Assembly (NCBI GenBank): GCA_012295275.1
Contig: CM022670.1
Location: 11,780,001-11,844,000, forward strand
Source: Chrysomallon squamiferum
Taxonomy: Eukaryota > Animalia > Mollusca
DNA: 64,000 nucleotides
Reading direction: 5' to 3'
The translations under genes and the position numbers were made by a program. A model generated the notes under the pieces. It was not told where the DNA came from and made no database searches. It saw only the letters and a program-made list of their open reading frames with translations. Within the stretch, counting starts at the first letter, position 1, and every line of letters starts with the position of its first letter. Below, piece after piece: positions 1-61,116 of the stretch.

Positions 1-420
1 TGTTGTTGTTGCTGTTGTTATTATTACTGTCATTGTTATTGTTGTTGTTGTTATTATTATTATTAATATTATTATAGTATAATTATTCAAATTATTATTA
101 TGATTATATAAAGAAAATAATATAAAAGTTGATTTCTAGCAGCAACAACCAAAATAAAGTAAAAAAATTTAAAGTTGGTTTTGTGATAATATTTTCTCAC
201 AATTATAATTATAGTGACATATGAATCAAAATGTCGATCTTTAAAAAAAAGATTTTTATGCAGGAACATTTTTCATATCCATTGTCTCAAAACTGGGTTC
301 TAGTCACACTGAAATTTCCCCAAACTGAACAATTGCCATTGTCCTGTGATTTTTCAAGTATCTGAAAATATATGAAGCTGAACAGCACTCCAAGCAAACT
401 TATTAATCTTGTCTCAACAA

Positions 421-457
<37 letters not shown>

Positions 458-1900
458 ACTATTATTATTATTATCATTGTATTTATTATTATTATTATTA
501 TTACTATTATTATTACTAACTGTTATTAGCTTTAAACATTTTGAGATGAACTGTACAGTGACACTGATTTAAAAAAGTTTCGTTGTAACGAAGTTCTGTG
601 AAGTTACCGTTACTTCTCTCTCAGTGTGTATTCTACTAACGGTAGTTTTGAACAGATTATGTTCAGTCTGTTTAGGTTATCTGCTTTAGACCAGTTTATT
701 TAGGTTATCTCTTTGTTCATGAGAACTTCCCGTGTTTTAACGTCCGTGACACACCCTTCAGTCACCCATCAGCACTACCACATACCTAACAATACCTGTA
801 TTTACCTGTTGCAGGTAACAGATACATTTATTTCAGGTAAGGTCTGTCAACAACAGGTGACTCTGCGGGTATTGTTCCTTCTTTCATCTGTGAGTTTACA
901 CTCTGATAATGAATTAGTATTTACAATATATTGAATTCTCATGTACACACTGTTATCCTGGCTGGTCGTTCAGTCTGAGATAAAGTGTGTAGGGCTACAA
1001 GTTTAGACCCGATAAACATCTTTGTAATTTAATATATTTATTGTTATTTTGAAGAAGAAAAACCCCCATCTCTTTATCACTTGTTACAAATGACAAAAAC
1101 AGTATTTTTTTTTTTTTTTTTACCCATATTAAATTTGACAGGTGAAAGAAATATTTTCCTCATCACATCAGCATGATGTAAGTAAATAGCGTATAATTTC
1201 CTTATTGATAGGAATATCCACACAAGAGCTATTTAATTTTTTTTTTTTGAATTGTATTTTTATTTTTTTTTTTTTTTTATCATTGACTGATGGTAAGATT
1301 GATTCTGTGATTGTAGTGTCCTGTTCATGTTTGGACATGTTCCAAGTCTGGACACCTGGGTTTATCAGTCTTGTTACGTGTTTTATCACATCTGGTACAA
1401 AATAAATAATTCACAGTGAAATATTCAACAAACTTTCTGTGTGATGTGTACACAGTATTTTCTACTATTACAGTAGTAAAAATAAGTACCAACAGAAAAA
1501 AAGAAACATACACAGTGTGTCTCAGAATGAGGTTTGTAGATGTAAGGGCTGTTACCCCAGGATTTCAGGGTGTGAATACAACAGACATGACAAAAAAAAT
1601 TTCAGCTGTTTCTTCACATTAGTATTTATTATATTGACATTGCAGAGCAGTAATCTATCTCTCAGATAGTTTTTTTTTTTTTTTTTTTTTTTTTTTTCTG
1701 TTGAAAATTAATAATAAAGATTCTGAAGATTTTCAACTTTTTCATTTAATGTTTCCTTTAAAAGATGATTTGATTGTTTTAAAATTTAAAAATATAAAAA
1801 TTCATTTGAAATATAAAATAACTACAATGTGGGAAGAACACTGTTAGTTTATATTAATAAATGGTCTTCCTTAAAAAATCTGTTACAGTTATCTTTCAGT

Positions 1901-1982
1901 ATTTTAATTAAGGAGAATAAATTTTAATTAGTTAATTAGTTGACCACAAAACCAGTCTGTCTGTCTGTCTGTCTCTGTGTGT
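1901..1982. repeat. ~75-bp dispersed repeat, inverted relative to the copy at ~5711-5780
   Basis: Reverse complement of 1901-1980 (acagagacagac...actggttttgtggtcaactaattaactaattaaaatttattctccttaatt) matches 5711-5778 (cacagagacagacatactggttttatggttaactaattaactaattaaaatttattctccttaatt) with few mismatches. Confidence 0.8.
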
Positions 1983-2594
1983 GTGTGTGTCTTTTTGTAA
2001 ATCCAAAATACTAATTAATTTAATATGTAATGATTATGAATTATAAGAAAAAAAAAAAAAAAATTGAAAAAAAAAAAAAAAAAAAAAAATTAACACAGAT
2101 AACAGCATCAAAATACACTTTCAAAATATATATACTGCATTTAATATTAATGGGATTTTGATTTAAAAAAATCAGTCATTTAAATGGCTTCTGTCTTGAA
2201 AAGTAATTTAAAAAAAAAAAAATCTGGCAGTTGTTATCATAATGCCCCATATTGGTTTTCTTACAGTTTTGAAACATTAGGTTATTATTTGTCTATGTCT
2301 GTAATTACTATTAAAACAATGCCTTTCACACTAAAATAATTTATAATAATAAAATGTTCACCTAACACTTTCTGAGGACAGTTATAGATGCAGCCTTTAC
2401 TTTATTTGTAATATATAGTCATAAGGATAGAACTACCAAAAAAAAAAAAAAAATAAAAAAAAAAAATATATATATATATATATAAAATAAATAAAATAAA
2501 ATGAATAACAATAAGTAAAAGGATAACACAAAGATTTTAAAATCTTTTTTCTATTTCTATTCCATCAGCACAACATAAAAGAAATAATAATAAC

Positions 2595-2638
<44 letters not shown>

Positions 2639-3924
2639 CAAATCTAATTGAAAACTAGTTTTTGTTTTTTTAATTTAATTTGAAAAAGAAAGGTTATTCA
2701 GACTTAATGACAAATTAAAAATTAAAAACTCTGTTAAACATAATTAGCATATATAAGAAATTTTGACTGTTGTTAATTTATGGAATGAACACTTTATTGT
2801 CTGACATCCAATTTCGAATTTTAGAAAAATAGATCAAAGGTAGATAACTCCACTTTTCACCAGTAGAAAAGGCGTGTAGTCTTTGTAGCATTTATTGATA
2901 AATAGTAAAATACTTAAAAGATTATATATATTTTTTATTCGTAAAATATATTTTGTTTTTAAAGCAAATATTCAAATTTATATATTCTTTTGAAATATTT
3001 TTTAATCTAGAATTTTAATAACATATTTCCATCAAAGGGATTTTTTTTTATAACAGTAGAATTCAGTATCCATATTTATTAAATATCGTTTGATCTCAGG
3101 CCAGTACTATCTCATTTCTGCTATTATAATTTTACTAAATATTTCAAAAAAGAAAAACACAACAATATTTAAATATTTTTATTTCATTTAAAATGCCTTT
3201 AATAATAATGTTGAAAAAATTATAGTTCTCAAAAAATAAAAAAATAAAAAAAAAAAGAAAGAAAAAAGCTGACAAAGACTTAGCTATTATTGTACTGTTT
3301 TACAAACTCTGTACGACATAAAACAACAACAACAAAAAATTTAAATGAGAATATAATTTGATGTCAGGAAGTCAACACACTTGGAAAACATGAACTTTAA
3401 AAAACATAACAGCTGGGCATATTAACCATATCACATCCAAGTAACATTAACGTAATGCTTAAAACCACGGCTATAACAACAGTCTACTCTTCTCAACATA
3501 CAATATAACAATTACATCACTGATCACAACCATTCAGCTATTTGAAACTTCTGAAATGCTAAGCTCACTGCCGATTCACATCCAAAATGACGGGCTAATA
3601 TTTCTTAAATAAATAAATTAAATAAAAAACAAGCTACGAGGTTTTCTACTTTGTGCTTTGCATTGAAAACAGAACGAACAAAACAAATATAATAAACAGA
3701 CATATGCAGTACTCACTTTACCATAAAAACCCTCGCTTGCATTGAAAGTGCAGCAGTACTCATAATTTTTATGATATACCCATTTATGAAATTTAAAATC
3801 TTGGATTATTTTTAAATTTCAATGGAATGCAGATGTCTGCAAAAATGGTTTGAAATAAATATACACAATTCTCAAAACAATCTAGAAAAAGCTATCAATG
3901 TTTATGAAAAAAAAAAATAATAAT

Positions 3925-3961
<37 letters not shown>

Positions 3962-5314
3962 CAACAAACAGGGGTTAACACAATTCAGATCTCTTTCAGT
4001 TAGATGCTTTTTCTTTTCAGATCATTATTAATGGATTCCAGAATATTCTTAAATTCCTGACTAAATAGAATTATAGGGAGCTGTCGTCTCATATTCATAA
4101 TCAGAAAAAAAAGAACGCATATATATGTAAGAAAAACATTTTCAATTTTGTTGTGCAATTATAAATAGGAATTTTTTTTTTGTATGTTAAAAAAATACTG
4201 AAATGTAAAAAATATATATATATAAAAAAAATGTCTTCAAATTCTACAGCTAAACACTGTAAGAAAGCAAAAACTTAGTAAGTAGATGGACATCTTAATG
4301 AAATATCTCATACTGTACACCAAGGTTTTAATAAACATATAAATAAATAAATAAATAAATATCTTACTGTCATATCATACACTCTACTCAATTTTACAAA
4401 AAGCTTTACAGCAAGTACATTTTTAAAAATAATACTAATAATGTAAACAGCAAATCAAAAAGAATTATAATAAACTTGTAGATTCTCAAAAAGTCAGACA
4501 GTCTGTATGATAAGAATTACCAAGTGAAATTTTCACCCATTATAACTTCTGATCTTCAAGGATTATTAAATTACAGTTATTGCTTTTAAAAGGAAAATTA
4601 AAATAAATATTTAATAAATACTTACTGAAAATATTTGTGGAATGTAGTGTAAAAAAATATTAATCTGTATTGTTTAGGAGAAGAAGCAATAAGTAGATGT
4701 AGGATCAGTCTATTTCTACAATCTATTTCCCATTCAAGTCAGAGCTCTGCAGTTGTTTTAACAAAGGATATAATATATGCCATCTTTTTTTTAATGAGAA
4801 TAAAGGATCCTGTGATGATAGATAGAAAAAGAATAACTGATGCAATATAGAGTGAATGTTTTAACAAATTATAATCATTAAAAATTAGATTTAAAATTTG
4901 AACTATGATGAATTCTGGATTAAGTTTAGAATCTAATAATCCATGAAAATTCTCCCAGTAACATTTGATTTTGAGTTTGTGAGTGATAATTCAGATGGTA
5001 ATTCTTTTAGCTACAATGTAAAATTGAATGATTCCCAGAACTGTATATATATATCTGCATTCATTTTTATATTTCAGTAAAAATAGTAATAGAATAAAAT
5101 TTGCATTACTGATAAAAACCAAGAATGATATTTTAAATAAAATTGTTTATAATGCAATGAACAGGTTCACTTAATAAATCCATTATCTTAAACAGTTCCC
5201 TTCTATCACAATTCACATTGATAAGCACTAGCGAAATTTACTGTATGTAAAAAAAAAAATATATATATCTGGAGGAAATAAAATGAATAGTTCCATTTTA
5301 CTGGACAACAGTAA

Positions 5315-8300
5315 TCACATTGAAAACAGTTTCATGAAGTTCTCAGGAGAAAGTTCTTTTGAGACAGTTTCTCCATCTTTTACACACGGGTGACCAAGAG
5401 ACTGAAAAAAAGTGAAAACAAATTTGTATTTTATTTTTTTTTTCTGATCTAAAATATGATAAAAGTTCACTAAAAACTGTGACATATTAAAATTTATCTG
5501 TGATGATGTAATGAAAAAGATGTGAACATCAAAAATTTGGCATTAAAATCTAAAGCATTAAAATTTACATTAAAAGACTGTTAAAAATTTGATATTAATA
5601 TTAACACACCTTACATGATGATGTAAGACACACACATGGACAAACACACACATACAAACAGACACAGACACACATACATACACACATAGAGACAGACACA
5701 TACATTCACACACAGAGACAGACATACTGGTTTTATGGTTAACTAATTAACTAATTAAAATTTATTCTCCTTAATTATAATATTAAAAATGTGTAAATAC
5801 TGTGATGATGGACAAACCTGCCAGAAAATGCTGCTGCAGTAGGAACAAAGCGCTAACGTGTCTGCAAATGTATCTTTTCTCCCGAAACGTCTGAATTAAA
5901 TAAACCAAATTAACAGCCACAGTGATACTGCTTAAATCTTTTTATCACACTGAACATTCCTTCATATACAATTTCAGTCATAACATAACCCACATTTATT
6001 AACTCTCAAAAAAAAAAAAAATATTAATAAAAAGCTTAATTTACATTTATTACAATTGTCAAGAAAAAAATATTTGAAGAGATAAACATGTGTCATTTTT
6101 TTTTTTTAAACTTGCAATTATAAATGATTTTTGGTGAGAGGTTTTTTAATTTTTTGTTGTTTAAATAATGAATGTGGAGACTTACTTGTAGCACCGCTTG
6201 TATATGTACTTCCAGTCCACCTCTCGGACATCTCTGGACTCAGGAAGGAAGGTGACGAGCTGTTTGTCGGTGAAATGAAAGAAGCACAGCTGTCGCCATA
6301 ACAACATTTCCTGAGACAGGTCGTAGATGGTGCTGTTTGTTTGAGCGGTGCAGATCACATCTTTGTGGTCGACGAGACATCGGAGGATGCAGCGGATGCA
6401 GTCGTCTGGCAGGTCACTGAAGGTCACTCCGCCATCATCTTCACGCTGAGGTTCAGAAAATTGTATTTCGTTACCAAGGAGACTATTGTTTTGCCAGATT
6501 AAGTTAGTAGTTGTTTCCATTTTCAAGACAAGTGACAAAATGTGTGTTTTTTTCAGACATTGAACCTTGCTAGAATATTTTTAAAAGTGAAATTAAGTAG
6601 TAGTAGTTAAAATTAAAAAGAAGTAGCTCTTGAGTACTGTTTATGAGTATCAAGGCCTCCCTATGGCAAAATATTATTAACACAGATGATTATTATTTAA
6701 TTATATTTTGTACTCTCTATACCTTTTTAATACTAGTATTCATATTAATTTTTCATTTTAAATTTTAAATTTGAATTTGATTTATGAAAATTTTTGTAAT
6801 ATTTCTATTATTCGTGCACTGGATTTGTAACAAAGAAAAGACAACCCATGCAAGTTAAGTGGCAGTTCATCTTCATTATTAACATAATAATTTACTCTGT
6901 TTTTACATCACCATTTAAACGAATTTTGTTTTAAATTCCAGATCCTGTTTACACTTCACCTGTTTAATCTGGAACTGGTTCAGTTTGTTAACCAACTTCT
7001 TCACAGTGTCTTCGTGCTGGGACCAGAGACAGGAGCTGCCGATGTGGTTGATGTGTCCCTCCCTCAGAGCGTTCTCTGTCGCAAGCAGCAGGTCTCGCAG
7101 TGTCCCAATGTTAAACTCAGTCTTCATTGCTTTGAAAAATTTAAATTAAATAAACTATATAATGTTTTTTCAAATCATGTAGGTCGAATGTAATATTTAA
7201 TCAATATTAAAATCAAAACTTAAAAAAAATTAAAAAAACTTTTTTTTTTTTTTTAAAGTTTTAGTAGTTTTACCTTTATAATAAAACATGAAAACAGTCA
7301 AAAATTTCTAACCAATGTTTTTAATTTTTATGTTTCAATAAAATAATCTAAATTTAAAAAGTAGTTTTTGAATAGTGATTTAAAAACAGTTATTAACCAT
7401 GATTTAGCAGAGCTTCAAGAATTGTGAAGACGTTTTTCTGAGCTGTGCCACTGAGATCTGCCAGTTTGGATTTCATAATGATCTGTAACAACTGAAAATG
7501 AAAAAATAACAGTAACTGCATGTAAAATACAGATAACCTGCAGTTATTTTATGAAGTATATTTGTTGATGGGTATGTTGGAAATTTCAAAACATACAGAA
7601 TAATGATGTTATTAAACAAACTACATAAATATATTTTAAATATTAGAAATTATTTAAATTTTTGTATCATCATTCAATTTATAAGTATTTACATTCCATC
7701 ACCACCAAAATTTCAGTATTTGTATTGTTGTTTTTTTTAGGGGGTTTTCAGGGGACAGGATCTTTTTGGTGTGGTTTCATTGAATATTATCAAATGTACA
7801 AAGTTTAGGATGTAATAAATTTTTAATTTTAGGAATCTAAAAGCAAATATGGACAGAAAAAAAAAAAAAAAATAATAATAATAAAAATAATAATTCAAAA
7901 AATCTTTACTGCTGCAAAATACCTTGCAAACAAAGTTGAATCTGCGAATATCTTTGACTGCTCCAGCCATGTCAAGTCTGACTAGTGCCTCACTCAAACT
8001 GATAAGTTCTTTTCTCTGTAAAACCATCAGACAACTTTGAATGTTTATTTTATATTATAACCAAAAATTAGTCAGTACAAGAGTTTCTTCAGTTTAAACA
8101 TTATAATCCCGTAATCCTGATAATGGGATGCACTAGTTTAGAATGAAGGTTTGTTAATTAAGTTAGTGTAAGATCTGAAAGTTTCTGTTGAATCTTATTT
8201 TTATTTAGTAAATTAAATATCTGAAGACCAGTAAGTGTCTGTTGTCAACATGTGACATCTGTAAAAGTTTTTCTCATTAATAATTGTAGTACATCTCTAT

Positions 8301-8317
8301 GAATTGAAATTTTTCTG

Positions 8318-8358
<41 letters not shown>

Positions 8359-8520
8359 AAAAATAAATAAATAAATAAATAAATATAAAAAAAATTAAAA
8401 AATAGAAAAAATAGAAAATATTCCAATAAAATAAAAACAAATTAAAATAAAATAAAATAAATAAAATGAAATAATTAAAATTTAAAAAAAATAATAAAAT
8501 AAAAATTTATAAAACAGTAA

Positions 8521-8551
<31 letters not shown>

Positions 8552-9422
8552 GTAGATAAGTAGATAAATAACTAAAATAGAAAAAAGTAAAAAAGTAAAA
8601 AAATAAACAAATAAATAAAAAATAAAAATGTGTATCTTCTTTAACCTCCTTTGACACTCCTTTGTTGTACTGTATGTATGGACGCCGTCTTTCTAGCAGG
8701 TAGGTCTTATCAGCATCTGGGAGTGCAAGACGAATAATTCTGAAAGAAAACAGACAAAGCAGTAAAAACAATGAAAGTGATTCCTGTTAAACACTGTACT
8801 TAAAAAAGCAGCTGAGGCTACTGAGAGTTCTGCATTTTTATAACTGCTATTTTATATATATATATATTACTGTCAAGAATCTTACTAAAATTTAAAAATT
8901 GTTATATATGAATTAAAATATGAATTATTTCAAATGATCAGTTTACCATAACATGAAAAGAACTGAAATAGGGAGTACAGTCACCCTCTCCCTTTCTGAA
9001 AAACAGATAATGCCCCTCCCCACCCCCTGAATAACAATCCACCAGAAAAAAAAAAAAAAAAAAACTTTCCTAATATGAAAAGAAGGAATTACCTTATCCT
9101 GATTGATGGTGGCAGTTCTGTCTGGGATGAGAATAAATGTTTTTATTTATTTAAAAGTAGCAGAAAAGCCTTTCAAAAACTAATGGCAGTGGATTTTCGT
9201 ATCCCCTATTCTCAAACTAAGAAACCATTGTTCTAATTAAATGAGAACAGTAGAGGAAAATGGAAATAAATATAAACTGAACTGAAACAACATTGATGTA
9301 AATAAATAAAAACAGCAAAGGAAAATTAAAACGCAAATGAAAAGGGGCAAAAAAAAATAAAAAATGTTTTATATATATATATAACTGATAAAACAACAAA
9401 ATGAGAGGAAAAAAAAACAAAG

Positions 9423-9453
<31 letters not shown>

Positions 9454-10326
9454 GTTTTCTTTTATAAAAAGGGCATTGTCCAGCAGGTTATTATCTGTAG
9501 GATGAAATGTCAATGACTTGGACAAAAATTCACAAAAGAAAATAATACTTGGACGTACATATACCATATACATATAAATAACTTATACATAATATTTTGC
9601 GTTGTTTAAGTTGTTTTTGGGGGGAAATAAACGTAATACAAAATGTTTATGTTGTATGATCCACTTTCATGAATATAATTTCCTTTCCCCCCACCTTTTT
9701 CTTTTTCTTATATTTTCTTTTCTTTTCTTTATTATTATTATTTAATTAGTTATTATGGGTTTTCTTCTTCTTCTTCTTTTTTTATTTCTTTTATGTAGAG
9801 AAACGTTTACACATCCACTCCAGCATCTAATACTTTTGTTTGTTGTTATGTTTGTGTTTTCTTCTTTGCTCACTCAAACCAGCAGTTATTGCGTATCATG
9901 TAACGTACAGAAAGGCAGTCTATTGGATATGAGGTCAGAAACAAAAAAAGTTCACTTGGTCTGCTACTGATATGAAGAACTCAAGCAGATTACTAACTGT
10001 TCGGTGCGATTAGGCAGTTACTATTTTTAGTAATGACATAATAATTGTTCATTCACTGCACTAGTGTTTCGATGTTGAAAATACTGTATAGAACTGCAAG
10101 TTGTCTATTGCTATCAACTTTACACACAAATCAAGTGATGAATTTAAAACAAAAAGCAGAACGAAAAAAGAGAATGTCTATGTATTATTAATTCTCACCT
10201 GGCTATCACATTTTCATTGAGATTCTCGAATACTTTTAACCTCCACAGCCTCAGTTTTTCCCATCCTTCTGTCGTCCGGACCCATTCATCTCCGGGAGAG
10301 CGCCAGTCGCGCCCAAGGAACGGCAT
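5315..10326 (-). CDS. FBXO32: F-box only protein 25/32 (atrogin-1/MAFbx-like), 8 coding exons
   Basis: N-terminus [24 protein letters not shown] matches the FBXO32/25 signature MPFLGQDWRSPG. Exons with GT-AG boundaries at about 10326-10199, 8739-8646, 8015-7923, 7491-7398, 7129-6960, 6448-6186, 5891-5818, 5401-5315. Contains [20 protein letters not shown]-box [24 protein letters not shown], and C-terminal [16 protein letters not shown]...[12 protein letters not shown]. Likely co-ortholog of FBXO25 and FBXO32. Confidence 0.93.
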
Positions 10327-10389
10327 AGTAATATTATTTTAAAATAATGTCTAATCCTTTGTAACAATTAATTGTACTACGCACTGTTT

Positions 10390-10750
10390 TAGTGTTTACG
10401 AACATATGTAAACATCCAGATCCACGGACTGAACATTTTCGCTGATTTGATTGGTTAATTCAACTGGCTAGCAGAAGATCATTAGACGATATTCTGCCAG
10501 CTTCAGTCACGTGGCAATGTTTATGTTTACTTGATCAGCTGTTCGCTGTCTGCGATACTCATTTCATGTTTGACCGAAATACAGAAAGACGAGCCGTTTT
10601 CAGTTAATCTATGTTAATGGCACTGAACTGAAAGAAAGGGGGCACCTTATTTTATTTTGTAAAATATCTGTTTTATGGCCAAGTGCAAAATTAGAGTTTT
10701 AAAATTATTATATCTATAGTAATTAAATGTTAATGTATATTGTTTACTGG
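10390..10750. promoter_or_regulatory. Upstream region of FBXO32 (divergent to SELENOP) with a forkhead/FOXO site cluster, E-box and CCAAT box
   Basis: TGTTTAC at 10393, 10524 and 10741 (the last as full TTGTTTAC); GTAAACA at 10408; TGTTTAT at 10518; GTCACGTG at 10506; ATTGG at ~10450. Function is inferred from motif consensus only. Confidence 0.55.
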
Positions 10751-11009
10751 TATAATTCGTTTAATTAACTGCTCCTTTTTTTTTCTTTTTTTTTCTCCTA
10801 TTTTTATTTTATTTTTATTTTTAATGTGAAACGTTTTATATTTCTTCTTACATTTCTCACATCTAAAGCTGTAAATATCTGCCTAGTTATAGCTATAATA
10901 GTCACTAAACCTATTTCAACTGAACATTCTAGTTACATTTTTGTCATTACGTTTTCCTCATTGGTAATTATTTAATATATTTGTCTTTTTTTTAGTTTAT
11001 TAAATATAT

Positions 11010-11046
<37 letters not shown>

Positions 11047-11434
11047 GATTCTCTTTTTTTTCCCCCAGATACTACTCGTGTTCCAAGTAAGGCTTTTGTC
11101 AGTAGCCCATATAAAATAAAACAAATATCTGCGGCGGTCAACTTTTTAAAAGTTTTATTTATTTAGTTTTTATAACTGTATTTATGATAACTGAGATCGG
11201 AATACCCACCGTTTGCAAACAACAACAGCTACCATTAACTGAATAATTTGTTGTTACATATGTAATATTTGACACAACTTACAATAGTTATTCTTTATTT
11301 CTTCTCTTTTTAAAAAGTATTATTATTACAGTTGTTAACTATTGTTGTTTCAGTTGTTACTATATTTTCATTACAGTATTTAATGATTATCATCATCATC
11401 ATCATCATCATCAATTTAAACTTTAGACTGTTAT

Positions 11435-11506
<72 letters not shown>

Positions 11507-11958
11507 ACAGATTCAGGTTATCAGATAGTGTTACATTGTTCGTTAGAATGATACTCTGTCCTAATTTGGGTGGTATGACAACAGGTCAAGGATTTCTGCA
11601 GTATATATTTAAGCTGTGCATTCATTCGTTAGTGTCGTTGTAACTTTCTGCCTATTTTTGTGAGAGACGAGCTCCGGTAAGGTCGAACCTAAACGTACCA
11701 GCCAAAGAGAAGTAAGTTTTTTTTATTTTATTTTCTTTACGTCTAATGTATATAATCTCTTTAACTTGTCGTTTCCCCAATTTCATATTGCAAGTTTATT
11801 TACTTATTTTTTATTTGTTTGCTTTTGTTTGTTTATTACTTTTGTTGTAATTTTCTGTCTTTTGCAACTGCCATTTTGAAAACCAAAATGGGTGATGTAA
11901 CATTTGTCAGGATATTATTTTCATGGTTTTTATTTCAACTTTCAGACGCTTTTCAGAA

Positions 11959-12328
11959 ATGCAGGGCCTACGGGCGCTGCTGGGTTTGGTAGCCATCGCC
12001 GCCTGTCTCCCGGGCTCCCTGGGTGACCAGTGCCAGAGACTTCCATCTTGGTCTCTGGGCGGGGTCAGCCCTATGGAAGAGGCTCGAGGCAGGGTGACAG
12101 TGGTGGCTCTACTCAAATCTAGCTGATCCTTTTGTAGAAATCAGGCCGTAGGGTAGGTTGTTTTTTTGTTTTTTTCTTGATTAGAAGTTGATAATTAGGT
12201 ATTTTTATCTTTTTTCTTAATATATTTTGTTATTTTGGATGCTGACTAAGCACCTATTTATTTAAAATTTGATTTTTTAATTTTTAAATCAAAGTCATTA
12301 TTCTGCAGATAATCATATCTTCACAAAA

Positions 12329-12359
<31 letters not shown>

Positions 12360-12369
12360 AGAAAGAAAG

Positions 12370-12403
<34 letters not shown>

Positions 12404-13636
12404 AAAAATAAATAAATAGATAAATAAAAAATTATTTCATCTCAGTTGGTTTTTAACAATTTGAGAATTAGTTGAAACGTTTATAGTTGAAACGTTATTT
12501 TGCATTGCTTTCTAGCTTGAACAACCTTCGGGAACAGCTTGCCAGACAGTATGGTTGGAACGACATCAACATCTTTATAATAAATCACCACGACCACCGG
12601 TCTATAGCAACAATTAACATGCTCACAGAGCTAGTTCCCTTTCCTGTTTACCAGGATTCTAGGCAGCTCCATCTTTGGCGAGACATCTTTCAAGGAATTA
12701 AAGACGATTTCTTTGTGTTTGACAGGTTCATATTATTTTATGCATTTATTATTTTATAATAATGTCTTCGTTCGGACAATCATAAAAGTGAATTTACATA
12801 GTCATAAAAAGAAAAAAAGAAAAACGATGTCAAGGAGAAAGAAATTAGAAATTTGTTTTATCATTTTAACAAATAGCGCGGTGTGTTTCATTATTTGATA
12901 TTATTATTATTATTATTATTATTTTTTTTGTAATTCAGCATTTCGAAAAATCAGTAATACTTACATAATTTTACATTTATTTAACTATTATCGTTTATTT
13001 ATTTGTTAATTTCCAGGTGTGGCAAAACTGACGTACCGTCTCACATATCCACAGAGCTATCTCGGCTATAGCTACACACGCTTGGCTATAACGAACACAT
13101 ACCAAAACAACATATGTAACTGCCCCGAGCACAATCAGGCCATCCATGACAGAATGGTAGGCGACGCACCAGAAGAACGGCAACACGCTGTCAGTCAAAA
13201 CGGGCCGCCACGATGTGCCGATGGAGACGCTCTTTGCAGAGTATTTCGTAACATAAGAAGGCGACACAGGCACTTAAACGCCACGCACGAGTGTTCATGT
13301 CCCAGACTCCTCACGGAGCGACACTGCTACTGCTCTCTCATGTTGAGCGAACTGGAAGATGGCGCTGCTTGGAAATGTCTGTGTCGTAATCCTTCAGAAA
13401 TGGTACGCCGGAGATGTAGCTGCCAGGCCTGTCCAGCGCTTCGTCAACACACTGGAATCCATCTGTTGAAAGGAAGCGGACGAGTATCGAGTAATGCTGC
13501 ACAAAACGTTCCGGGAAATAGCTGACCCTGACCTCAGCAGAGTTCCTGACGGTGACCTCACCAGAGTCCCTGACAGGGAACTAATCCCTGAGGGTGTCCT
13601 TCCAGTACCAGCATTTGATCCTGACCCGTAGCGTAA
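11959..13636 (+). CDS. SELENOP: Selenoprotein P with 9 in-frame UGA (Sec) codons
   Basis: Signal peptide MQGLRALLGLVAIAACLPGSLG, then GRVTVVALLKSS-U-SFC (UGA 12124-12126, UxxC motif) and WRDIFQGIKDDFFVFDRCGK.LTYRLTYPQSYL (the SELENOP KDDFLIYDRCG motif). Exons 11959-12152, 12516-12725, 13017-13636. After the ORF-track 'stop' the frame continues with UGA at 13523, 13529, 13547, 13553, 13571, 13589, 13616, 13622 to TAA at 13634-13636. One extra A at 13024-13027 breaks the frame. Probable non-coding first exon ~11620-11711. Confidence 0.93.
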
Positions 13637-14027
13637 ACTGCAGAACTTTTAACATTTAACTACTAAACGTAACAGTATGATGTCTAAAAAATTATTAATT
13701 CGTCTGTATTCTAATTATTAACGGTATGATACATAGTATTTTAATTTTAAAATATGCAGAAAAAAGAAGGTATAAAACTGAAAGAATTTTATTTTTGTTT
13801 CGTTTTAAAGAAAATAATTTCTACAAAAAACATTAACTTTTGATCTAACTAAAATGTTAATTAATTCTTCTATATTCTCCTTCTAAAATAAAGAATGTTT
13901 ACAAACTATTGAGAAGATAGAAAAAGAAGGAAAAAATAAAATAAATAAATAATCCTACGAAGTACTCCTGAAGGGTCATAACCACCAACAGTAAAAAAAT
14001 GTCGTACTACTGGTAATAGATTTCACC

Positions 14028-14124
14028 GTTTGGCAGACATCAGCTGAACTATGAAAGTAACTCAATAAAACCAAACGGTCTTGAGTTATTTGATTTAAAT
14101 TTCAGCTGCTCTGTCTGACAAAAC
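14028..14124 (+). promoter_or_regulatory. SECIS element (type 2) in the SELENOP 3' UTR
   Basis: Helix I CAGCTGAA (14041-48) pairs with TTCAGCTG (14101-08). Core ATGAA (14051-55) faces TGAT (14091-94). Helix II AGTAACTCAA (14056-65) pairs with TTGAGTTATT (14081-90). Apical AAA (14067-69) with mini-stem ACC/GGT. Outer stem TTTGGCAGACA/TGTCTGACAAA. Confidence 0.92.
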
Positions 14125-14194
14125 AGTAAACTTATTTTCAGTAGATTTTAACGTTGTATTGTAAATATATTTGTACATACTAACATTTTATTTT

Positions 14195-14229
<35 letters not shown>

Positions 14230-14723
14230 AAAATAAAATACCTCTATATCTTTATTAATACCCACTTGCCATTAATTGTTATTATTTTATTAATTACTAT
14301 AGTTAATTACAATTTTTAGAAATGAATTGTTGGCAAAGTAACGATTTAATATCATTATGATTAGGTGGATTTTTAAAAAATAAAATTAAATAAATAAAAA
14401 CTATCAGCTAAACAAAATGCTGAATATTTCTGGTTTTGTCTGCGGATGATGGATCGTTATCAAATCTGTCGAAGGTGATGTTCCAGACCATTAGACATTA
14501 CTAGCTAATATTTAGCAGTCAAAAACAAAGAAATCGAAAAAAACAAAACAACAACAAACAAACGGAAAAAAAAAAAAAAGAAAAAAAAAAACTGAAATAA
14601 ATAATTTTTAATACTGATTGTCTTTTTCATTATTTGATAAATAATAATTTGTAGAAAGTGATTAACATTATGAACCGTTTTCTGTGCTGCTAAAATTCAT
14701 TTATTTGCAGAATTTCCAAGTAC

Positions 14724-14760
<37 letters not shown>

Positions 14761-15099
14761 GTTAAATCTTGATACTAATTCATTAAAAGAACTATCGAAA
14801 ATGACACTGCATGCATGTAACATCTTATCTGAGCTAACACACTCAAGTGTCGTAAAACTAATTCCATAATGTTTCATATAATTATTTACTTCACAGAACG
14901 AATTTATTAAAGTAGAAAAGTTTTCACATTTCTGGTGTATATGTTACCAGTTCCACGGAACGTTGCATCAAATATATTTATGCAACTCTATGAAGTCAAA
15001 ACAAGAGTTATCACGTGTGTTGTTTTGTTTTTTACCAATATATTCTCGCAAACTCTCGCTAGTTGTACGAGACTTACAATATGTTGTGTATGTTGTGTT

Positions 15100-15270
15100 G
15101 CCAGCCAATCAACATGCTTTCGATATTGTGATTGGCCAATGGAACGGAGGTAAACACAAAAGTGTACATCTGAACGACTAGCTGTGACATGTTATTTTCT
15201 ATAACAAGCAAATTTTAAATGCAGAATAACTGAGAAAGTATCGATATTCTAGTGGATTATAATTATAATA
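15100..15270 (+). promoter_or_regulatory. CDC20 proximal promoter / non-coding exon 1 with NF-Y CCAAT boxes and a CHR-like element
   Basis: CCAAT at 15105 and 15136, ATTGG at 15131, TTTAAA at ~15214, splice donor GTAAGT at 15271 and acceptor at 15975 just before the ATG. Confidence 0.5.
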
Positions 15271-15637
15271 GTAAGTTTTTATTTTTTAAGAATAGTTTGT
15301 ATTATTGCATATAACTCTATATTATAATTACTGAATTATTTCTTATCGTTATTTTAAGTTCATAGTTACTGAATATTCTATTACGATCTTTTTGAATAAA
15401 ACAGTCTTGGTTCATTGATAATTATTATAATGAAATGAAATACGAAATCTGTGATAAAGTACACAAATCTAGTATTGATAGCTTAAACAATACAAAACTC
15501 GATAGCATTAGAATAAACTGTAAAGATGTCCATCTTCCTTTAAAATAACATTTTATCGGTCAAAGGTAAATATTTAAATCTAACTTTGTTTAAACTAGTT
15601 GAAAATAATGTTTCAGTGCAAAACGTCACCTGATTTA

Positions 15638-15693
<56 letters not shown>

Positions 15694-15981
15694 GAAAAGC
15701 TAAACTTTCTATCATTTACAGTATCTTTTGCAACAATTGTATTCTACTGTCAATTTATTCTTTGTAACAATATTAATACTTGTTTGAGTTCATTTACTGA
15801 TTTAGCTTACATTTGACACACAGTCACAGACACACACACACACACACACACTGTTGTGTGCTGTTGAAACAAAATGTAATGTTCAGAAATTCTAACATAC
15901 AACAAGAAACTAAGCTGGATTTTGTTATTTTAAGATGCTGTTACGAAATCTGATTATTTAACATGTATTTTCAGGTAGACA

Positions 15982-18900
15982 ATGTCTCAGTTTTTGCTGG
16001 AAAATGAAGTGAATAGTGCCTTGAAATGGGATGCTCCTCTGACAAGGGGCCCACTCATGAGATGGCAGAGGAAACTGGTAGAGGCTGAAAGCATCCACAG
16101 TGTAAATAGTTCACTGAAAAAAACACCAGTGAAACCTGCTAATTATTCTCAGAATGCCACGCCACCATCACTATCACGATCAGCAAGAAAAACACCCAAA
16201 TCCGCAGGTAAAGTCATGTGTGTGTACATTTTAACTTGTCAGTTATGTGCAAGTACCTTTGTGCCAACTATATCTACCATTGCTAGTTATAAAGGTCAAC
16301 TCAAACTGATTTCACTCAATGATGATGATGATAAACATGATGAGTAAATATTTAATGATGAATTGTTTTGTATTTTTAAGATTTCTGTTTATGATAGGTC
16401 CAGAGTAAATTAGGCAACATTTGTCTTTAAAATGACAATGTTTTGTGAACTTAATTTATGAAATAATTGAAGATAATAACATGAATACAAAGGTGAACGA
16501 AAAAAGCCGGTATATTGTGTTGTATAAGGAATGTAAGAAAAAAAACAAGTACAGGTTTTAAAGTTGAGCTGTAAAATTATTAGTGCTCTCAAGTAATTTA
16601 TATTTCATTTTAGTAACAAAAACTATTTTTGTATTGTTATTTTTAATGTATCTCAGGAAAGTTAAGAACGCCAGGTTGTAAGACTCCCAAAACACCAACT
16701 GCAGGTGACAGATTTATTCCCAATCGATGCAGCACACAGTTTGAAATGGGCCACTACAAACTGGGTGTTGATGTTGATGCTGAAGATGAACTAATGAGTC
16801 CATCACAGCAGGAATTTCAGCGTATCATGAATGGCAATCTCAATGGTGATCTGCTAGATTCCAAGATCATTGCTTACAAAACAAAGGCTCCATCAGCTCC
16901 TGAAGGTTTGCTTTTATTAAAAATAAATATATTGTTTTTTTTTTTATATATCCTGTGATTTATTATTATTGTTATTTTAATGTTAGAACTAGATTATCTA
17001 ATCTGTTTTTAGAACTTCTAGAAATAATCAGTAAAGTGGTTATTGGTTATTTTCATATTTACTATTTATAGAACTGCAACATCTTTTTTTTTCACAGTTC
17101 TACTTTATCAAAAAAACTAAAATAATTATTATTTTTTTTTTAAATTTCTATCTTAAATGTTAGAATATTTTAATATTTTTCCAGTCATATATAATTTATG
17201 ATTTCAGTGGGTCTAGGAGTGGCAATATTCATCAACATGACATCCATGTTGGCAACCATCATATTGCTATAAATTCATTGAAAGTTCTGTTTTTTTTTTT
17301 TTTTTTTTTTTTTTATTATTTTTTTTAATGTTATACAAATGCAATAAATATATATTTATTTAAATAATAATTAAAAAAAAAAAAAAAATGTTAATTATGT
17401 ATTTTACAGGATTAAACAATAACCTTCGAGTCTTGTACAGTACATCTAAATGTAGCAGCACAGCAAAGACTATGAGGCAGATACCTCAAGTACCAGAAAG
17501 AATCTTAGATGCACCGGAAATCCTGGATGATTACTGTGAGTTGTTTCCCCAGATTTTTCATAAATAAAAATGCACAAGACAATGCATCAAATATAAAAAT
17601 CTATTTTATGTTAATATTATATATATTGTTTTTCTATAATAAATTAATTTATATTTACGATTCACCTTTGTTTTCAGATTTAAATCTGCTTGACTGGTCC
17701 GCAAACAATCTTTTGGCAGTGTGTCTTGGTAACAGTGTGTATCTGTGGAATGCCAATAATGGTGAAATTGAACAGTTGATGCAGATGGAAGAGCCTGGTG
17801 AATACATAGGAGCAGTGTCTTGGATTAAGGAAGGCAATTATCTAGCAGTTGGTACTAGCAGTGGTGATGTCGAGGTTTGTACATCAGGTTGTTTTCACTC
17901 TTCAGTAGCTCGACTCCTGTGACATTTCAGACAGTTTTGTGTAATAAAGCTGTGTTTAGAACATTCCATAGATGTAACTTTGTTTTTTATTTTTATAGTT
18001 GTGGGATGTTTCTCAGAAAAAGAAACTTCGGACTATGGCTGGACATTCTGCTCGTGTTGGCTGTCTCTCTTGGAATATGTATATACTAAGCAGGTATGTG
18101 AATTCAGCAAACAAAACCCAGGCAAAATATAAAGTTAAAGTTGTAGCAGATAAATAATCCATATTTGTTCACATTCATTGGTATCCTAATGATAATGTCT
18201 AAATGATAAAAGTTAAATGGTGTAGTTTTTACAATTTTTTTTCAGTAGTGTTCAAATGGTGAACAAAATTCTCTGTTTATATTTAAATCATTTTAAACAT
18301 CTCTTAAGCTTGTGCATTAATAACAGTGTTGTCCTTTCCTGTAGAATTGCTGAATCTTTTAATATTTTACCAGCCAAATGTAATTTTGAGTATGATTTCA
18401 GTGGGTCTAGGAGTGGCAATATTCATCAACACGACGTGCGTGTTGGCAACCATCACGTTGCTACACTGGAGGGTCACACACAGGAGGTGTGTGGTCTGAA
18501 ATGGTCACCCGATGGAAAGTATTTAGCCAGTGGAGGCAACGACAACCTGCTTAACATCTGGTCATCCAATGTGTCCGAAGTTCAGCCTCTCCACACATTC
18601 TCACAACACCTGGCTGCTGTCAAGGTATTCAAAAAGGGAAATAATTTCTCATTTCCTTATCAGTGAAATCAGTAGTAAAGAATGGGGTAAAAAGATAAAA
18701 CCTGATGTCTTATATTAAGATTAATTTTTTTTATTTGAATATTACTGAAAAGTTTCTAATATGTTGGTGTTTGACATTTGTTTTTATTAATATTAGATAT
18801 ATGACACAAAAAATTAATACTTAGCTTAATCATCTTTATATGTTTATTAATTGGACTGTTTTATAAAATCCACATGAATGTTTCCTGATGTAATACAAAT

Positions 18901-22162: not shown

Positions 22163-24382
22163 CTATTTATTATCTATAAGTTTGTCCCTTGCAATTACTG
22201 ATTCATCAAATCTGATTTGAAAGGCTGTACCCTTGTGCCAATGAACAGTTACTTTTGCTGGCTGTGAAAAAAAAATAAAAAATAAAAATAAAATAAGGAT
22301 GTTATTTTTTAATCCATAATACTGAAAAATAAATAAATAATAAAATTATAATAAAAAGTTTGATCAAAATAACAAAATCCTAAATAAAAATATTAATAAA
22401 ATAACTGTTTACATTGAAAATGTAAGGATTTGCAACCACATATCAACAAAATTGTTAGATGATTTACAACTGTTGTCATTAAAACATTGGATAAACTTGT
22501 TTTGTAGATATTAATGATGTCATTAAAGCAACTGTTGATATATACTTTTCTCATAGTTGTTATAATTAATATTAGGTCATATACTGCATTACTTACAAAA
22601 TTTGCTCCATTTAATACTGCCTCAAGAATACCAGCTGTAAAGGCTGCTGGATTAAGACTTCCTGAAAAAGTAATTTACTGTTAATTATTCAGTTTGCTTT
22701 TAATTTTCATCTGGTTAATGCTAGCATAAAAAAAGGACTTAATTATCTAATTTATAATTTATACTTCTCGGTGGGAAAATACTGCACAACCTGAATCAGA
22801 CATCAGTTTGGAAAATCCAGATTTATGACAAGAAATAAGAATAATAATAAAAACAAATCTTACCTTTATCTTTTGGTACTGAAATGTATCTGTTGACTAG
22901 AGATTCTTTTTCAATTATGTAATCTGTATATTGTTAAGGAACATAAACAACAAAATAAAACTGACAATTGCTTAAACCATCATCATCATCATCTTAATAT
23001 TATTATTATCTTTATTACAGCATATTGTACCAATCATAATCATAACAATCATGTCCTGTCAAGTTCTCACTTGTGGCTGAATGAACTACAGTCACTGCAT
23101 GGCTGCATTGCATGTCTGGGGCCTTGAACCAATGACCTTTCTGTTACATCCAATACTCTATCATCTGAAACATCACCATCATTCTCATAATAAAAGAATA
23201 TGCATTCAGTATGTATCAGAGATACAGGCATTATCTATATTTAATAGTGTATGTCCTATAAATATAAGAATAGTAGCATCATTAATCAAGTATCAGTATA
23301 AATAAATGTTTTAATATTAATATTCAAAATATAATGGATACAAACTCTTTCATCATCATTGGCATGTTCCAAATTGTCTGCTTCTTTTCCAAATAAAGTC
23401 TGAAAATCAGAAAAGTGCACATTTTTAAGTGGACAAACAAATACTTTATATGCAGCATCCAAATCTGAGAGGTAGGGTAAGTTATATCACAATCTGACAC
23501 AAATGGTTATAACTTTTTTAGTAAAATGAGATATCTCTTACTGTTAGACTTTATAGAACTTGTCAAATAGTGGATGCTTTTTGTTTTTATTAATAATGAC
23601 TATTTTTTATCCCTTATCCACATTAATTTTTACCTCAAAGGTTTATAATTAACCTTATAACTTCTACAATTTTATATCAGTTTTATCAAAAATGATAAAA
23701 TACATTTCTGAACTCGTTTTACCTAGTTCTAAATTTTTTTTTTTTTTTTTTTAATATTAACATGCAAGACTATGAACAAACCTTCCACATGTTAGATCGA
23801 ATGAACAGCAGCATTGTCAACAGTTTGATTTCTCTCTTATAGCCTTTCTCCCTGAGAAACAACACATCCAGCAGATGAGATCCGACATGCTGGCCAATTT
23901 CTGAAAGCCTAAGAATTGTACATTACAACTAGTAATTTGAAGCACAAATATATGAACATGTGAATTTTTTAAATTTAGTATAGCCTCTACACATTTCCTT
24001 TCGTCTAAATCATATGATTTAAATACATTTTGGTTCCAAACTTTTAAAATTTCTCACTGTTTTTCTCATGGATTTTATCATTCTGAAAGTCTCATCCAAA
24101 ACTATCCAATATTTTTAGCAGTTACTGATACAGAGAAATTTCAAGATTAATAAAATTTCATTTCTCATAGTTGTAGCTAAGAAAGTTGGTTGATATCTGG
24201 CATCTGTAATGCAGTGATAAACATACATGTACTTACTTGGTTTGAAGTTCAGGCACTGTGTAAACTCGGTTTTGACAGTACTGAACAATCTCAGAAAATA
24301 GCAGAGCAAACGTTGCAATATTTATCTGTAAATGTTAATGATTTTATAAGTAAGTTTAATTTCACTTCAGTGCTGATCAGAA

Positions 24383-46836: not shown

Positions 46837-48321
46837 AGCTAAATACACCTCATTAAACGTAAACTATTTACATTCAGCAATTAAAGCAATAATTTTAATA
46901 TGTAAAAATATATGAATATACATAGAATATGTTTTATCTACATCACATCACGCAAGTCGTTTAGAATTTGGTTAAAAAATATGTTGCCCCTAATAAAAAT
47001 CTATAATAAATTGTTTTTGTGTTTTGTTTCATTATTAATAAATTCTGTATTCATACGCACATACATATCTACATACACACACTGTAACATACATGCCTCG
47101 CATACCTACATTTGTATTCACTTTAGACATTATTATTAGACTACAGAATTACAGCGAATACAACCCACAGACAGAAAGGACTGCAGAACACATCATCTTT
47201 AATACAACAAAAAAGCAAGCGATTATATTGAAACCACTCTAAAATAGATAAACTGATATTTAAATATAACCCTAACCATATAATTCTGTGAATATCATAT
47301 ATACCTAATACTCAAGCACACGTTTGTACTAATCAGGATTAATTTAACACCTATATTTTCTGTTTACCTTGGTGTATATGTATGGATATGTATCTATGTA
47401 TGTATGTATGTATGTATGTATGTTCCTATCTATATATCTACATAGATAGACAAGATAGACAGATTAGATAGATATGAAGAAATTTTAAATAATTGTCATT
47501 TCTAGTTTATTTTTCCATCTTCAGTCTATTACCGTTTCTGTATTACTGCATGAAAAATGAACTGAATTACTTTATTTTCAGGAAGACACTTTGATCTTTG
47601 TCACATTAAACTGTCGATATATAATCTGATGCTGCTTTGTAAAAGTTACGACATATAACACCTTCAACTTTTGTTTGTTAGTGCTTTCTTCCGCAGTTGA
47701 TGACACTTGATGTAAACTCGCTACATCTGTTTGTTATAAAATAACATTAACAGTGTATACTGCTCAAACAAAAGAAGTTCAAAATCGAACTAGAAAAACT
47801 AGGGTTCAGAGAGAGAGAGAGAAAGTATCTATTACTTTATTATAACCCACATTAGCCGATTGTCTTTCATTTGAGAAAAAAGGTAACCTAGTCTACTCTT
47901 GCTCTTAATAATAAAATAAAATAAAATAAAATATTTAAGAATGTGTTCGTGGGGAACGATCACTCCCTTGACTCGCCCTTCCTCTAGCTACTTCACGACT
48001 GACGTGAAATAAAGACAGAAAGAGACTTGGATTGCTGAGTTAAGAGAGTTTTAGAACGGAATGAAAGAAGGATGACTAAAGAAGAAGAAGACGGCAGATG
48101 AACGACAGAACGAGAGTAAAGGAAAAGAGAGCAAATAAAAGTAAGGAAGGAAGAAGAAAATTAAGATAAATATTACACAAATGTTCAGTAACTTTTTTAT
48201 TTACATCTTTTTAAAGAAAGTATTCTTCTAAGACAAAGACAACAGGAAAGGAAGTATTTTATTACTGGTATTATGTTATTAACTATTGGAAAATAGGATC
48301 ATTTGAAGTAATGACACAGAG

Positions 48322-48899
48322 ATGAATCGGTCTAAGTTTACTGGTGCGTCGTTGCTTTTGACACTTTGGTGTATTTTCACCAACTGGAACGTTTGTCTTG
48401 GAACGTGTAACAGCAAAACGGGGCCTTCGGGTTCTGTGGACTGTTTTCTTGGCACGCCATATTACTCTAAATATCAATGGGGAACCTGTCTCACCAACAG
48501 CTACATTCAACAGAAGTCTGGCGGAAAATACCACTGCAGGAACAGGAACGCTAAATATTGTTATTTCCAGTGCATGGTGGAGACTCATGATCTTGACGAA
48601 GGACCAGTTTATTCAGACTGTGAATGCACTCCTGGAGCAACCCGCGCACCCACAGAATCACCCACTGGTACTCCCCTAACTACTCTACCGCCGTGGTGTT
48701 CAAGTCCCGACGGGTCGGACTGTTCGTGGTACAGGCAATGCTTAGAAAAGAAGTACCCGTGTGAAGACTCGCAGAATGGTTACGCCATCAGTTACGCTGA
48801 AAAGTTTTGTTTCTTGTACACGAAATCTTCGACGAGTTTCTCTAGTATTGGGCAGGTATGTCAGATCGGATTATGTTATCGATCCATCTTTAATTCGTC

Positions 48900-48940
<41 letters not shown>

Positions 48941-48958
48941 TATTATTATTATTATTAT

Positions 48959-49011
<53 letters not shown>

Positions 49012-56477: not shown

Positions 56478-56513
<36 letters not shown>

Positions 56514-57355: not shown

Positions 57356-57852
57356 TTTAAAACAACAGAAAAAACAATCAGTAGACATCAACAGAAATAA
57401 CAGTTAATACGTGAAGAAGAACAGTAGATAATGATTTATTTTTACCAAAAACAGAAATAATTTTCTATTAATACTTTGAGTTTGCTTCACTGTTAATTGT
57501 TAACTGTATTGTGATTGTGAATTGTATTTTGTATTACCTTGGTTTCGTGAGGGACATTTTTTTGTTTGATTTCTTTTAATGCAGTTCTGGATACTAAACT
57601 GATGAAACAGTGTAGAGATATATTCACTAATTAAAATATGTATAATTTTTGTTGCCGTTGTTATTTTCCTTTTTGTTATTTCTTTTTATAATAATAATAA
57701 TAATAATAATAATAATCATATTATGACTAACAGTAGTTAGTTATGTCAGCTATGCTTTTATATAAATTATATCGGAACTACTACTACTACTTAATAATCA
57801 ATAGTATGAATACTCCCCAAAAACATCAGAAAACACAACAACAAAACAAATG

Positions 57853-57891
<39 letters not shown>

Positions 57892-61062: not shown

Positions 61063-61116
<54 letters not shown>

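What the first reader, a model, noticed from the sequence alone, without database searches (positions are those of the whole stretch)
13523..13636. Hidden multi-selenocysteine tail: invertebrate SELENOP with 9 UGA codons
Seen: the ORF track stops at 13525, but the frame continues as S-U-P-U-P-Q-Q-S-S-U-R-U-P-H-Q-S-P-U-Q-G-T-N-P-U-G-C-P-S-S-T-S-I-U-S-U-P-V-A-TAA. That is 8 UGA in 37 codons with no UAA/UAG, in GC-rich coding-like sequence that turns AT-rich right after the TAA. Six of the eight UGAs are followed by C, a weak termination context. A ninth UGA sits in the UxxC motif (12124). Known: SELENOP carries multiple C-terminal Sec for selenium transport, and the Sec count varies widely among invertebrates. 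Inference: this is a recoded 9-Sec protein with a Pro/Ser/Gln-spaced tail that standard annotation would truncate or split.
Basis: partly seen in the sequence, partly recalled or inferred. Interest (0 to 1): 0.85.

Follow-up and report, generated by a model that had tools for sequence, protein, structure and literature searches.

The report
Snail selenoprotein P with nine selenocysteines
A spliced, transcribed gene, likely from a snail related to Gigantopelta, carries nine in-frame UGA "stop" codons followed by two selenocysteine-insertion-type hairpins (one strong, one weaker), so it likely encodes a nine-selenium selenoprotein P, an ordinary new member of a known selenium-carrier family.

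Summary
The gene is SELENOP: Pfam SelP_N on all three coding exons, an intron 26 nt after UGA1 as in human, a SECIS at 14043-14106 and a weaker second one at 14438-14496. Both RNA contigs laid are one base shorter there, in frame, and run unchanged through the tail and SECIS 1. A 43%-identical relative (P0005) has W, likely UGA read by a gene caller, at 7 of our 8 tail U and 2 of our Cys. Named database models of Gigantopelta and Haliotis stop before the tail; Littorina and Pomacea homologs are CxxC forms without one. Sec incorporation is inferred, not shown. Multi-Sec invertebrate SELENOP (1 to about 132 Sec) is published, so nine is unremarkable. New member of a known kind; interest 0.3.

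The parts
11668..11711 (+). Non-coding first exon, as far as seen in RNA contig X9 (true start not shown); no ATG in the 57 nt of observed 5' UTR
   Evidence: Joint 11711 to 11946, GT..AG, in X9
11946..12152 (+). Coding exon 1: ATG 11959, hydrophobic N-terminus (likely signal peptide, about residues 1-22), start of the SelP_N thioredoxin-like domain
   Evidence: Pfam SelP_N 40.4 bits, E 2.9e-10; hydropathy peak 2.85; splice joint in X6 and X9
12124..12126 (+). UGA 1, in the UxxC motif, 26 nt before the exon junction
   Evidence: same position as U in the SelP alignment of PMC2397514 Fig. S2; 26-nt spacing as in human (PMC5133445)
12516..12725 (+). Coding exon 2 (SelP_N)
   Evidence: Pfam SelP_N 31 bits, E 2.1e-7; covered by RNA contigs X6 and X9
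13017..13636 (+). Coding part of exon 3: end of SelP_N, short Arg/His-rich stretch, Cys module, linker, Sec-rich tail; protein of 340 aa in the RNA-supported frame
13023..13027 (+). One surplus base in the assembly relative to both RNA contigs; likely a consensus artefact between two alleles
   Evidence: table 5c and arithmetic: X6 and X9 are each 1 letter shorter, by different letters; G. aegis models read through in the same frame
13292..13432 (+). Nine-Cys module (CxC-8-CxC-14-CxC-10-CxC-2-C), all Cys here; two of these Cys align with W (likely Sec) in P0005
   Evidence: same spacing except one linker in P0036
13523..13636 (+). Sec-rich tail: 8 UGA and 1 Cys in 37 codons, order 2-2-1-2-2, then TAA
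   Evidence: no difference listed for X6, X9 or X10, which cover it
14043..14106 (+). SECIS 1 (AUGA core, AAA loop with mini-stem, UGAU)
   Evidence: Rfam SECIS_1 33.4 bits (gathering 35), E 1e-4 to 5e-4; fold z -4.4 to -5.75, 0 of 200 shuffles; inside both RNA contigs
14227..14232 (+). AATAAA between the two SECIS elements (use not shown)
14438..14496 (+). Candidate SECIS 2 (AUGA core, AAA loop, AGAC on the 3' side)
   Evidence: Own descriptor: one of only 2 hits with dG below -21 in 64 kb on both strands; 0 of 1000 shuffles at dG <= -18; Rfam only 14.3 bits, E 2.7; fold z -1.7 and -2.1; presence in the mRNA not shown
14596..14601 (+). AATAAA about 100 nt after SECIS 2, candidate distal poly(A) signal

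Best explanation
The stretch is the last 37 codons of a spliced, transcribed selenoprotein P (SELENOP) gene, likely of a gastropod near Gigantopelta, whose nine in-frame UGA codons are likely decoded as selenocysteine under the SECIS hairpin(s) in its 3' UTR, giving a predicted secreted 340-residue selenium carrier. Shown: exon structure, in-frame spliced RNA, nine UGA, SECIS 1 on the same transcript, SelP_N domain. Inferred from vertebrate and oyster SELENOP: a slow first recoding at UxxC followed by processive Sec insertion in the tail; secretion into hemolymph; a redox role for the N-terminal domain; selenium delivery or storage by the tail; some termination at internal UGAs giving shorter forms, more so at low selenium. 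Inferred from relatives: this lineage has lost several upstream Sec (about 15 in the relative P0005 against 9 here) and keeps the terminal block.
For: SelP_N on 3 of 3 coding exons. UxxC and 26-nt intron spacing as in human. 8 TGA without TAA/TAG, 0 of 100,000 shuffles. 2 of 2 RNA runs laid give spliced, in-frame contigs through tail and SECIS 1. SECIS 1 by Rfam and folding; candidate SECIS 2; paired SECIS elements are described as specific to SelP (PMC2397514). P0005 has 0 W in residues 1-107 and 15 W in 108-229; 7 of 8 tail U and 2 Cys align to W; tail score reached by 4 of 20,000 shuffles with W scored as C, but by 3647 of 20,000 with W left as W. P0054, a vertebrate-type SELENOP from the same kind of collection, has W at the UxxC position, showing that UGA is read as W in some records.
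Against: No ribosome profiling, mass spectrometry or 75Se data. The assembly itself is frameshifted, and no DNA contig laid bridged that site informatively. Both RNA runs come from one study. The codons behind P0005's W could not be read. SECIS 1 is just under Rfam's gathering score; SECIS 2 is weak by Rfam and not shown in a transcript. The tail has no Pfam match at E <= 10. No stem-loop signal after UGA1 or at the start codon (z -1.1 to +0.7). Sec tRNA, eEFSec and SBP2 could not be checked because no genome is held. Zero differences in the 114-nt tail against 7 in the 495 nt before it (X9) is not a significant excess of conservation.
Confidence: 0.93

Rival explanations
1. Single-Sec SELENOP (SelPb-like): only UGA 12124 is recoded, translation ends at 13523 (about 303 aa), and the tail is a decayed coding remnant in the 3' UTR.
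For: RefSeq names the nearest relatives 'selenoprotein Pb-like'; amphioxus Bf.SelP_a has two SECIS but no C-terminal Sec (PMC3473315 section 9); no Pfam match for the tail.
Against: Eight UGA with no UAA/UAG and a sharp GC drop exactly at the TAA; UGA spacing and protein end kept in a 43%-identical relative; the RefSeq models begin after UxxC and are plainly cut.
Confidence: 0.04
2. The gene is broken in the sequenced animal: the extra base at 13023-13027 is a real frameshift allele and the product ends at residue 153 with one Sec.
For: The window reads that way; the DNA-type run X7 showed no missing letter there, but its listed pieces do not bridge the site.
Against: Both RNA contigs, from two samples, are in frame, and their two versions together account for the surplus letter. 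Even if real it would be one allele, not the species' gene.
Confidence: 0.02
3. UGA is read here as Trp or Cys (changed code or plain readthrough), not Sec.
For: P0005 is filed with W at these positions.
Against: W also stands at the known Sec site of a vertebrate-type SELENOP in these collections (P0054), so it is a gene-caller artefact; SECIS present; UGA aligns with Cys; UGA is confined to the family's Sec sites. Some Cys misinsertion at low selenium remains possible (PMC4599804, title in search listing only).
Confidence: 0.01

Closest known systems
Invertebrate multi-Sec SELENOP (Baclaocos et al. 2019, PMC6885538; not held, seen only through citing passages in PMC13134290, PMC8744743, PMC7435645, PMC8557442, PMC8230778)
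   Same: SelP_N with UxxC, C-terminal UGA-only tail, SECIS in the 3' UTR; the count lies inside the reported range of 1 to about 132 Sec.
   Different: Few Sec for a mollusc (oyster 46, Elliptio 132-133). The upstream module is all Cys and all 8 tail Sec sit in the last 37 residues. Whether that paper covered this lineage could not be read.
Gigantopelta aegis 'selenoprotein Pb-like' XP_041359650.1 and XP_041358221.1 (P0002, P0003)
   Same: 82% identity over 74% of exon 2 and 60% over the shared part of exon 3; nearest rows in the tree (clade support 91/88, not starred).
   Different: The models are 148 aa, start after UxxC and stop at a His just before the first W pair of P0005, a segment that our gene lacks. 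Their stop codon could not be read.
Human and fish SELENOP/SELENOP1
   Same: UxxC; intron 26 nt after UGA1; two SECIS; terminal spacing U-x-U/C-x6-U-x-U-x3-stop and, against several fish, the order 2-2-1-2-2 (PMC2397514 Fig. S2); 9 against 10 Sec in human.
   Different: Three coding exons instead of four; no long His tract; no Pfam match for the tail; residue-level similarity to the one vertebrate-type tail testable (P0054) is not significant (1347 of 5000 shuffles); invertebrate homologs fall outside the vertebrate paralogs (PMC13134290 section 15).
Caenogastropod Cys homologs (Littorina saxatilis XP_070195018.1, Pomacea canaliculata PVD23772.1; unnamed P0006, P0008, P0009)
   Same: SelP_N and the same HxxMxGD and C-x6-C landmarks.
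   Different: CxxC instead of UxxC; open reading to an end without the Cys module or a tail, as filed.

Membership tests
SELENOP (metazoan) | N-terminal thioredoxin-like SelP_N domain | tested here: met
   PF04592: 40.4 and 31 bits for exons 1 and 2 (cut-off 23.2); 20.3 bits for exon 3 alone
SELENOP (metazoan) | UxxC motif with in-frame UGA | tested here: met
   TGA 12124, U-S-F-C; same column as U in PMC2397514 Fig. S2
SELENOP (metazoan) | Exon junction 26 nt 3' of UGA1 | tested here: met
   UGA ends 12126, exon ends 12152, joint seen in RNA; PMC5133445
SELENOP (metazoan) | Signal peptide | tested here: inconclusive
   Hydropathy only (peak 2.85); SelP_N starts at residue 22; no dedicated predictor available
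Multi-Sec SELENOP | Several in-frame UGA, no UAA/UAG, in the C-terminal region of the transcript | tested here: met
Multi-Sec SELENOP | UGA aligned with Sec or Cys in homologs | tested here: met
   7 U:W and 2 C:W columns against P0005; one homolog only, and W = UGA is inferred
Multi-Sec SELENOP | A SECIS in the 3' UTR of the mRNA | tested here: met
   14043-14106, inside both RNA contigs
Multi-Sec SELENOP | A second SECIS | tested here: inconclusive
   14438-14496 passes the descriptor and shuffle test but scores 14.3 bits in Rfam; RNA contigs end before it
Multi-Sec SELENOP | His-rich region between the domains | tested here: inconclusive
   10 His in 202 residues of exon 3, only a short Arg/His stretch
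Multi-Sec SELENOP | Stem-loops at the start codon and after UGA1 (names ISL and SRE recalled) | tested here: not met
   z between -1.13 and +0.74 in five windows of the spliced RNA; single-sequence folding only, and these are accessory rather than defining
Multi-Sec SELENOP | Selenocysteine actually incorporated; selenium carried and delivered | not testable with these tools
   Needs ribosome profiling, MS or 75Se
Vertebrate SELENOP1 (Pfam C-terminal model; name SelP_C recalled) | Sequence match of the tail to the vertebrate Se-transport domain | tested here: not met
   0 Pfam families for the tail pieces at E <= 10; not significant against P0054. Only the spacing agrees. Not filed as SELENOP1

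The most novel reading that the evidence does not exclude
The snail's last nine Sec/Cys are the same ancestral block as the distal half of the vertebrate selenium-transport tail, kept while upstream Sec are shed. Gastropods would then show a graded series within one class: about 15 Sec (P0005), 9 (this gene), 0 (caenogastropod CxxC forms without a tail). In addition a poly(A) site between the two SECIS elements would give a one-SECIS isoform as in human.
Probability: 0.3. Interest if true: 0.5.

Novelty: new member of a known kind. Interest (0 to 1): 0.3.

Why it matters
It corrects a gene that the assembly breaks and that databases cut short in relatives, and it adds a data point to the use of SELENOP Sec count as a marker of selenium use. 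The comparison with close relatives suggests Sec loss by three routes within one snail group (Sec to Cys, deletion, replacement), with the terminal block spared. That points to the terminal block as the part under selection and makes it a compact target for uptake or receptor tests in a mollusc. It changes nothing about how multi-UGA recoding is understood.

Tried and rejected
No whole genome is held, so the Sec machinery and paralogs were not checked. Rfam at the gathering threshold found nothing in the window; SECIS 1 appeared only with the E-value threshold, and my first reading of a single SECIS fell when a relaxed scan found the second candidate. Three further candidates of that scan were dropped: two folded no better than shuffles (z +0.7 and +0.4), one was not folded, and none of the three passed the stricter descriptor. 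The first homolog search with exon 3 (longer proteins) found 0 of 141 candidates. The metagenome scan gave 1 locus from 601 stretches, a bacterial-looking SelP_N-like gene, uninformative. PDB sequence search: nothing significant (best E 0.67). AlphaFold on exon 3 with 4 sequences: mean pLDDT 38, uninformative, so no fold search was run. The ESM Atlas did not answer in four tries. P0010 (repeat protein) is a false hit of the profile. The tree has only 4 starred branches of 17 and does not fix the window's place within its group. Earlier findings of this scan: none on this gene. Baclaocos 2019 was not held; the supplement of PMC3473315 with the Lottia SelP was not read, and it may bear on gastropod Sec counts.

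Full report
Observation. None of 100,000 base shuffles of these 111 nt gave 8 TGA without TAA/TAG. In all six frames of the window the only other 37-codon stretch with 8 TGA is a low-complexity CAT/ATC repeat near 23090. GC falls from about 50% to about 20% at the TAA. Six of eight UGA are followed by C, but the tail is Pro-rich, and against its own codons the excess is not significant (P=0.087; 0.013 against exon 3).

Gene structure. Spliced RNA contigs give a non-coding exon ending at 11711 and coding exons 11946-12152 (ATG 11959), 12516-12725 and 13017 onward. All three coding exons match Pfam SelP_N. TGA 12124 lies in U-S-F-C, 26 nt before the exon junction, the distance described as highly conserved for UGA1 of SELENOP (PMC5133445, passages). 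The N-terminus is hydrophobic.

The assembled exons sum to 1024 nt, and read as given the protein stops at residue 153. Both RNA contigs laid (X6 and X9: two samples, one study) are one letter shorter at 13023-13027, each by a different letter, and so in frame (table 5c). The simplest reading is a consensus that merged two alleles. G. aegis models run through the junction in the same frame. The corrected protein has 340 residues and 9 U. Both contigs continue through the tail and SECIS 1 to 14176 with no difference listed in the tail, and X10, from another study, also covers the tail without one. X9 differs at 10 other coding sites, 5 silent and 5 not; the absence of differences in the tail is not significant by itself.

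SECIS elements. Rfam SECIS_1 matches 14043-14106 at 33.4 bits, just under the gathering score of 35; the hairpin folds better than 200 of 200 shuffles. A relaxed scan found a second candidate at 14438-14496. It has the AUGA core, a stem, an AAA loop and a lower helix in its minimum-energy fold, with z of -1.7 and -2.1, but only 14.3 bits in Rfam. A descriptor of my own gave 4 hits in 64 kb on both strands; only these two fold below -21 kcal/mol, the others at -9. In 1000 shuffles of 14411-15950, 14 gave any hit and 0 a hit at -18 or lower. The descriptor was written after seeing both elements, so this is supportive, not independent. The RNA contigs end at a T run before SECIS 2, so its presence in the mRNA is open. 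AATAAA occurs at 14227, between the elements, and at 14596, after the second; a human isoform lacking SECIS 2 is described (PMC5133445). Paired SECIS elements were reported as specific to SelP (PMC2397514, passages). No stem-loop signal was found after UGA1 or around the start codon.

Relatives. The nearest named proteins are two G. aegis 'selenoprotein Pb-like' models of 148 aa, so the organism is likely a related gastropod; the tree groups the window with them, P0001 and P0005 at 91/88 support. P0005, unnamed, is 43% identical over 165 columns of exon 3. It has no W in residues 1-107 and 15 W in 108-229. In the pairwise alignment 7 of our 8 tail U and 2 of our Cys face W, and 1 W faces a true Trp. 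With W scored as C the tails align better than all but 4 of 20,000 shuffles; with W left as W, 3647 of 20,000 reach the score. I infer that a gene caller read TGA as W. P0054, a vertebrate-type SELENOP among the 51 profile hits, has W at the UxxC position and supports this. The codons themselves could not be fetched.

Sec content across snails. On that reading P0005 has about 14 Sec in exon 3, about 15 with UxxC, against 9 here. Two are Cys here, two lie in a segment that our gene lacks, three face other residues, and our tail has one more. The two G. aegis models and a Haliotis asinina model end at a His just before P0005's first W pair, which suggests a UGA there and loss in our lineage; their stop codons are unread. 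Littorina and Pomacea homologs and three unnamed ones have CxxC and end without the Cys module or tail as filed. The nine-Cys module at 13292-13432 has the same spacing, but for one linker, in the distant P0036 (E 2e-4 pairwise); its CxC-x8-CxC core occurs in 2 of 58 stored proteins.

Relation to the vertebrate tail. In PMC2397514 Fig. S2 (supplement parts 1, 3 and 4 of 4 read) mammals end in U-x-U-x6-U-x-U-x3, and several fish show the order 2-2-1-2-2 over their last nine Sec. Our tail has spacings 1,5,1,5,5,1,6,1,3: the same terminal block and order. P0005 shares the terminal block but not the full order. In 1,000,000 shuffles of the tail positions, 3757 gave the terminal block and 1 the full order, but the pattern was chosen after seeing the data. 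Against homology: no Pfam match for the tail, and no significant residue similarity to P0054 (1347, 350 and 486 of 5000 shuffles in three comparisons). Homology is possible, not shown.

Mechanism. Shown: the transcript, the frame, nine UGA and SECIS 1 on one RNA. Inferred from the family: SECIS-directed Sec insertion at all nine, secretion, an N-terminal redox domain and a tail that carries selenium (PMC13134290 section 15; PMC2397514). Slow recoding at UGA1 with efficient distal recoding in oyster is recalled from Baclaocos 2019, which I could not read. Rivals are termination at 13523 (0.04), a real frameshift allele (0.02) and non-Sec decoding (0.01).

Novelty. SELENOP is reported across animals with 1 to about 132 Sec, especially rich in molluscs (passages of PMC7435645, PMC8744743, PMC8557442 and PMC8230778), and up to 162 UGA in lampreys. 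A Lottia SelP is listed in PMC3473315 (passages and section 9); PMC10635097 (passages) cites selenoproteins in many gastropod lineages. Seven searches (listings only) showed no paper on SELENOP of this snail group, 0 of the 20 listed papers of 45 contain 'selenoprotein'. The library lacks the key 2019 paper. Verdict: observation confirmed, interpretation supported, new member of a known kind, interest 0.3.

Noticed in passing
window 6182-6580 (-), 15979-18666 (+), 30768-32547 (+): Neighbouring exons: an F-box protein, CDC20/Fizzy and a reprolysin-propeptide (ADAMTS-like) gene.
   Followed up: partly
window 48307-63787 (+): Tandem array of a Cys-rich gene family with hydrophobic ends; 3 of 3 pieces tested had no Pfam match. 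ORFs at 58542-60566 and 61765-63787 begin with identical translations, a recent duplication or an assembly repeat.
   Followed up: partly
window 14064-14069: The AAA loop of SECIS 1 is part of an AATAAA hexamer; both RNA contigs run through it.
   Followed up: partly
P0054, P0005: Protein collections hold animal SELENOPs with UGA read as W; such records preserve Sec tails that RefSeq models cut off.
   Followed up: yes
P0055, P0057, P0006, P0008, P0009: Caenogastropod-type SELENOP homologs with CxxC and no tail form a starred clade (97/95).
   Followed up: partly
L001 3-275: GC-rich, bacterial-looking contig with a short SelP_N-like ORF (37% identity) followed by a cytochrome c-like ORF by eye.
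   Followed up: no
window about 22975-23100: CAT/ATC low-complexity repeat giving 8 TGA in one minus-strand frame; not a gene feature.
   Followed up: yes
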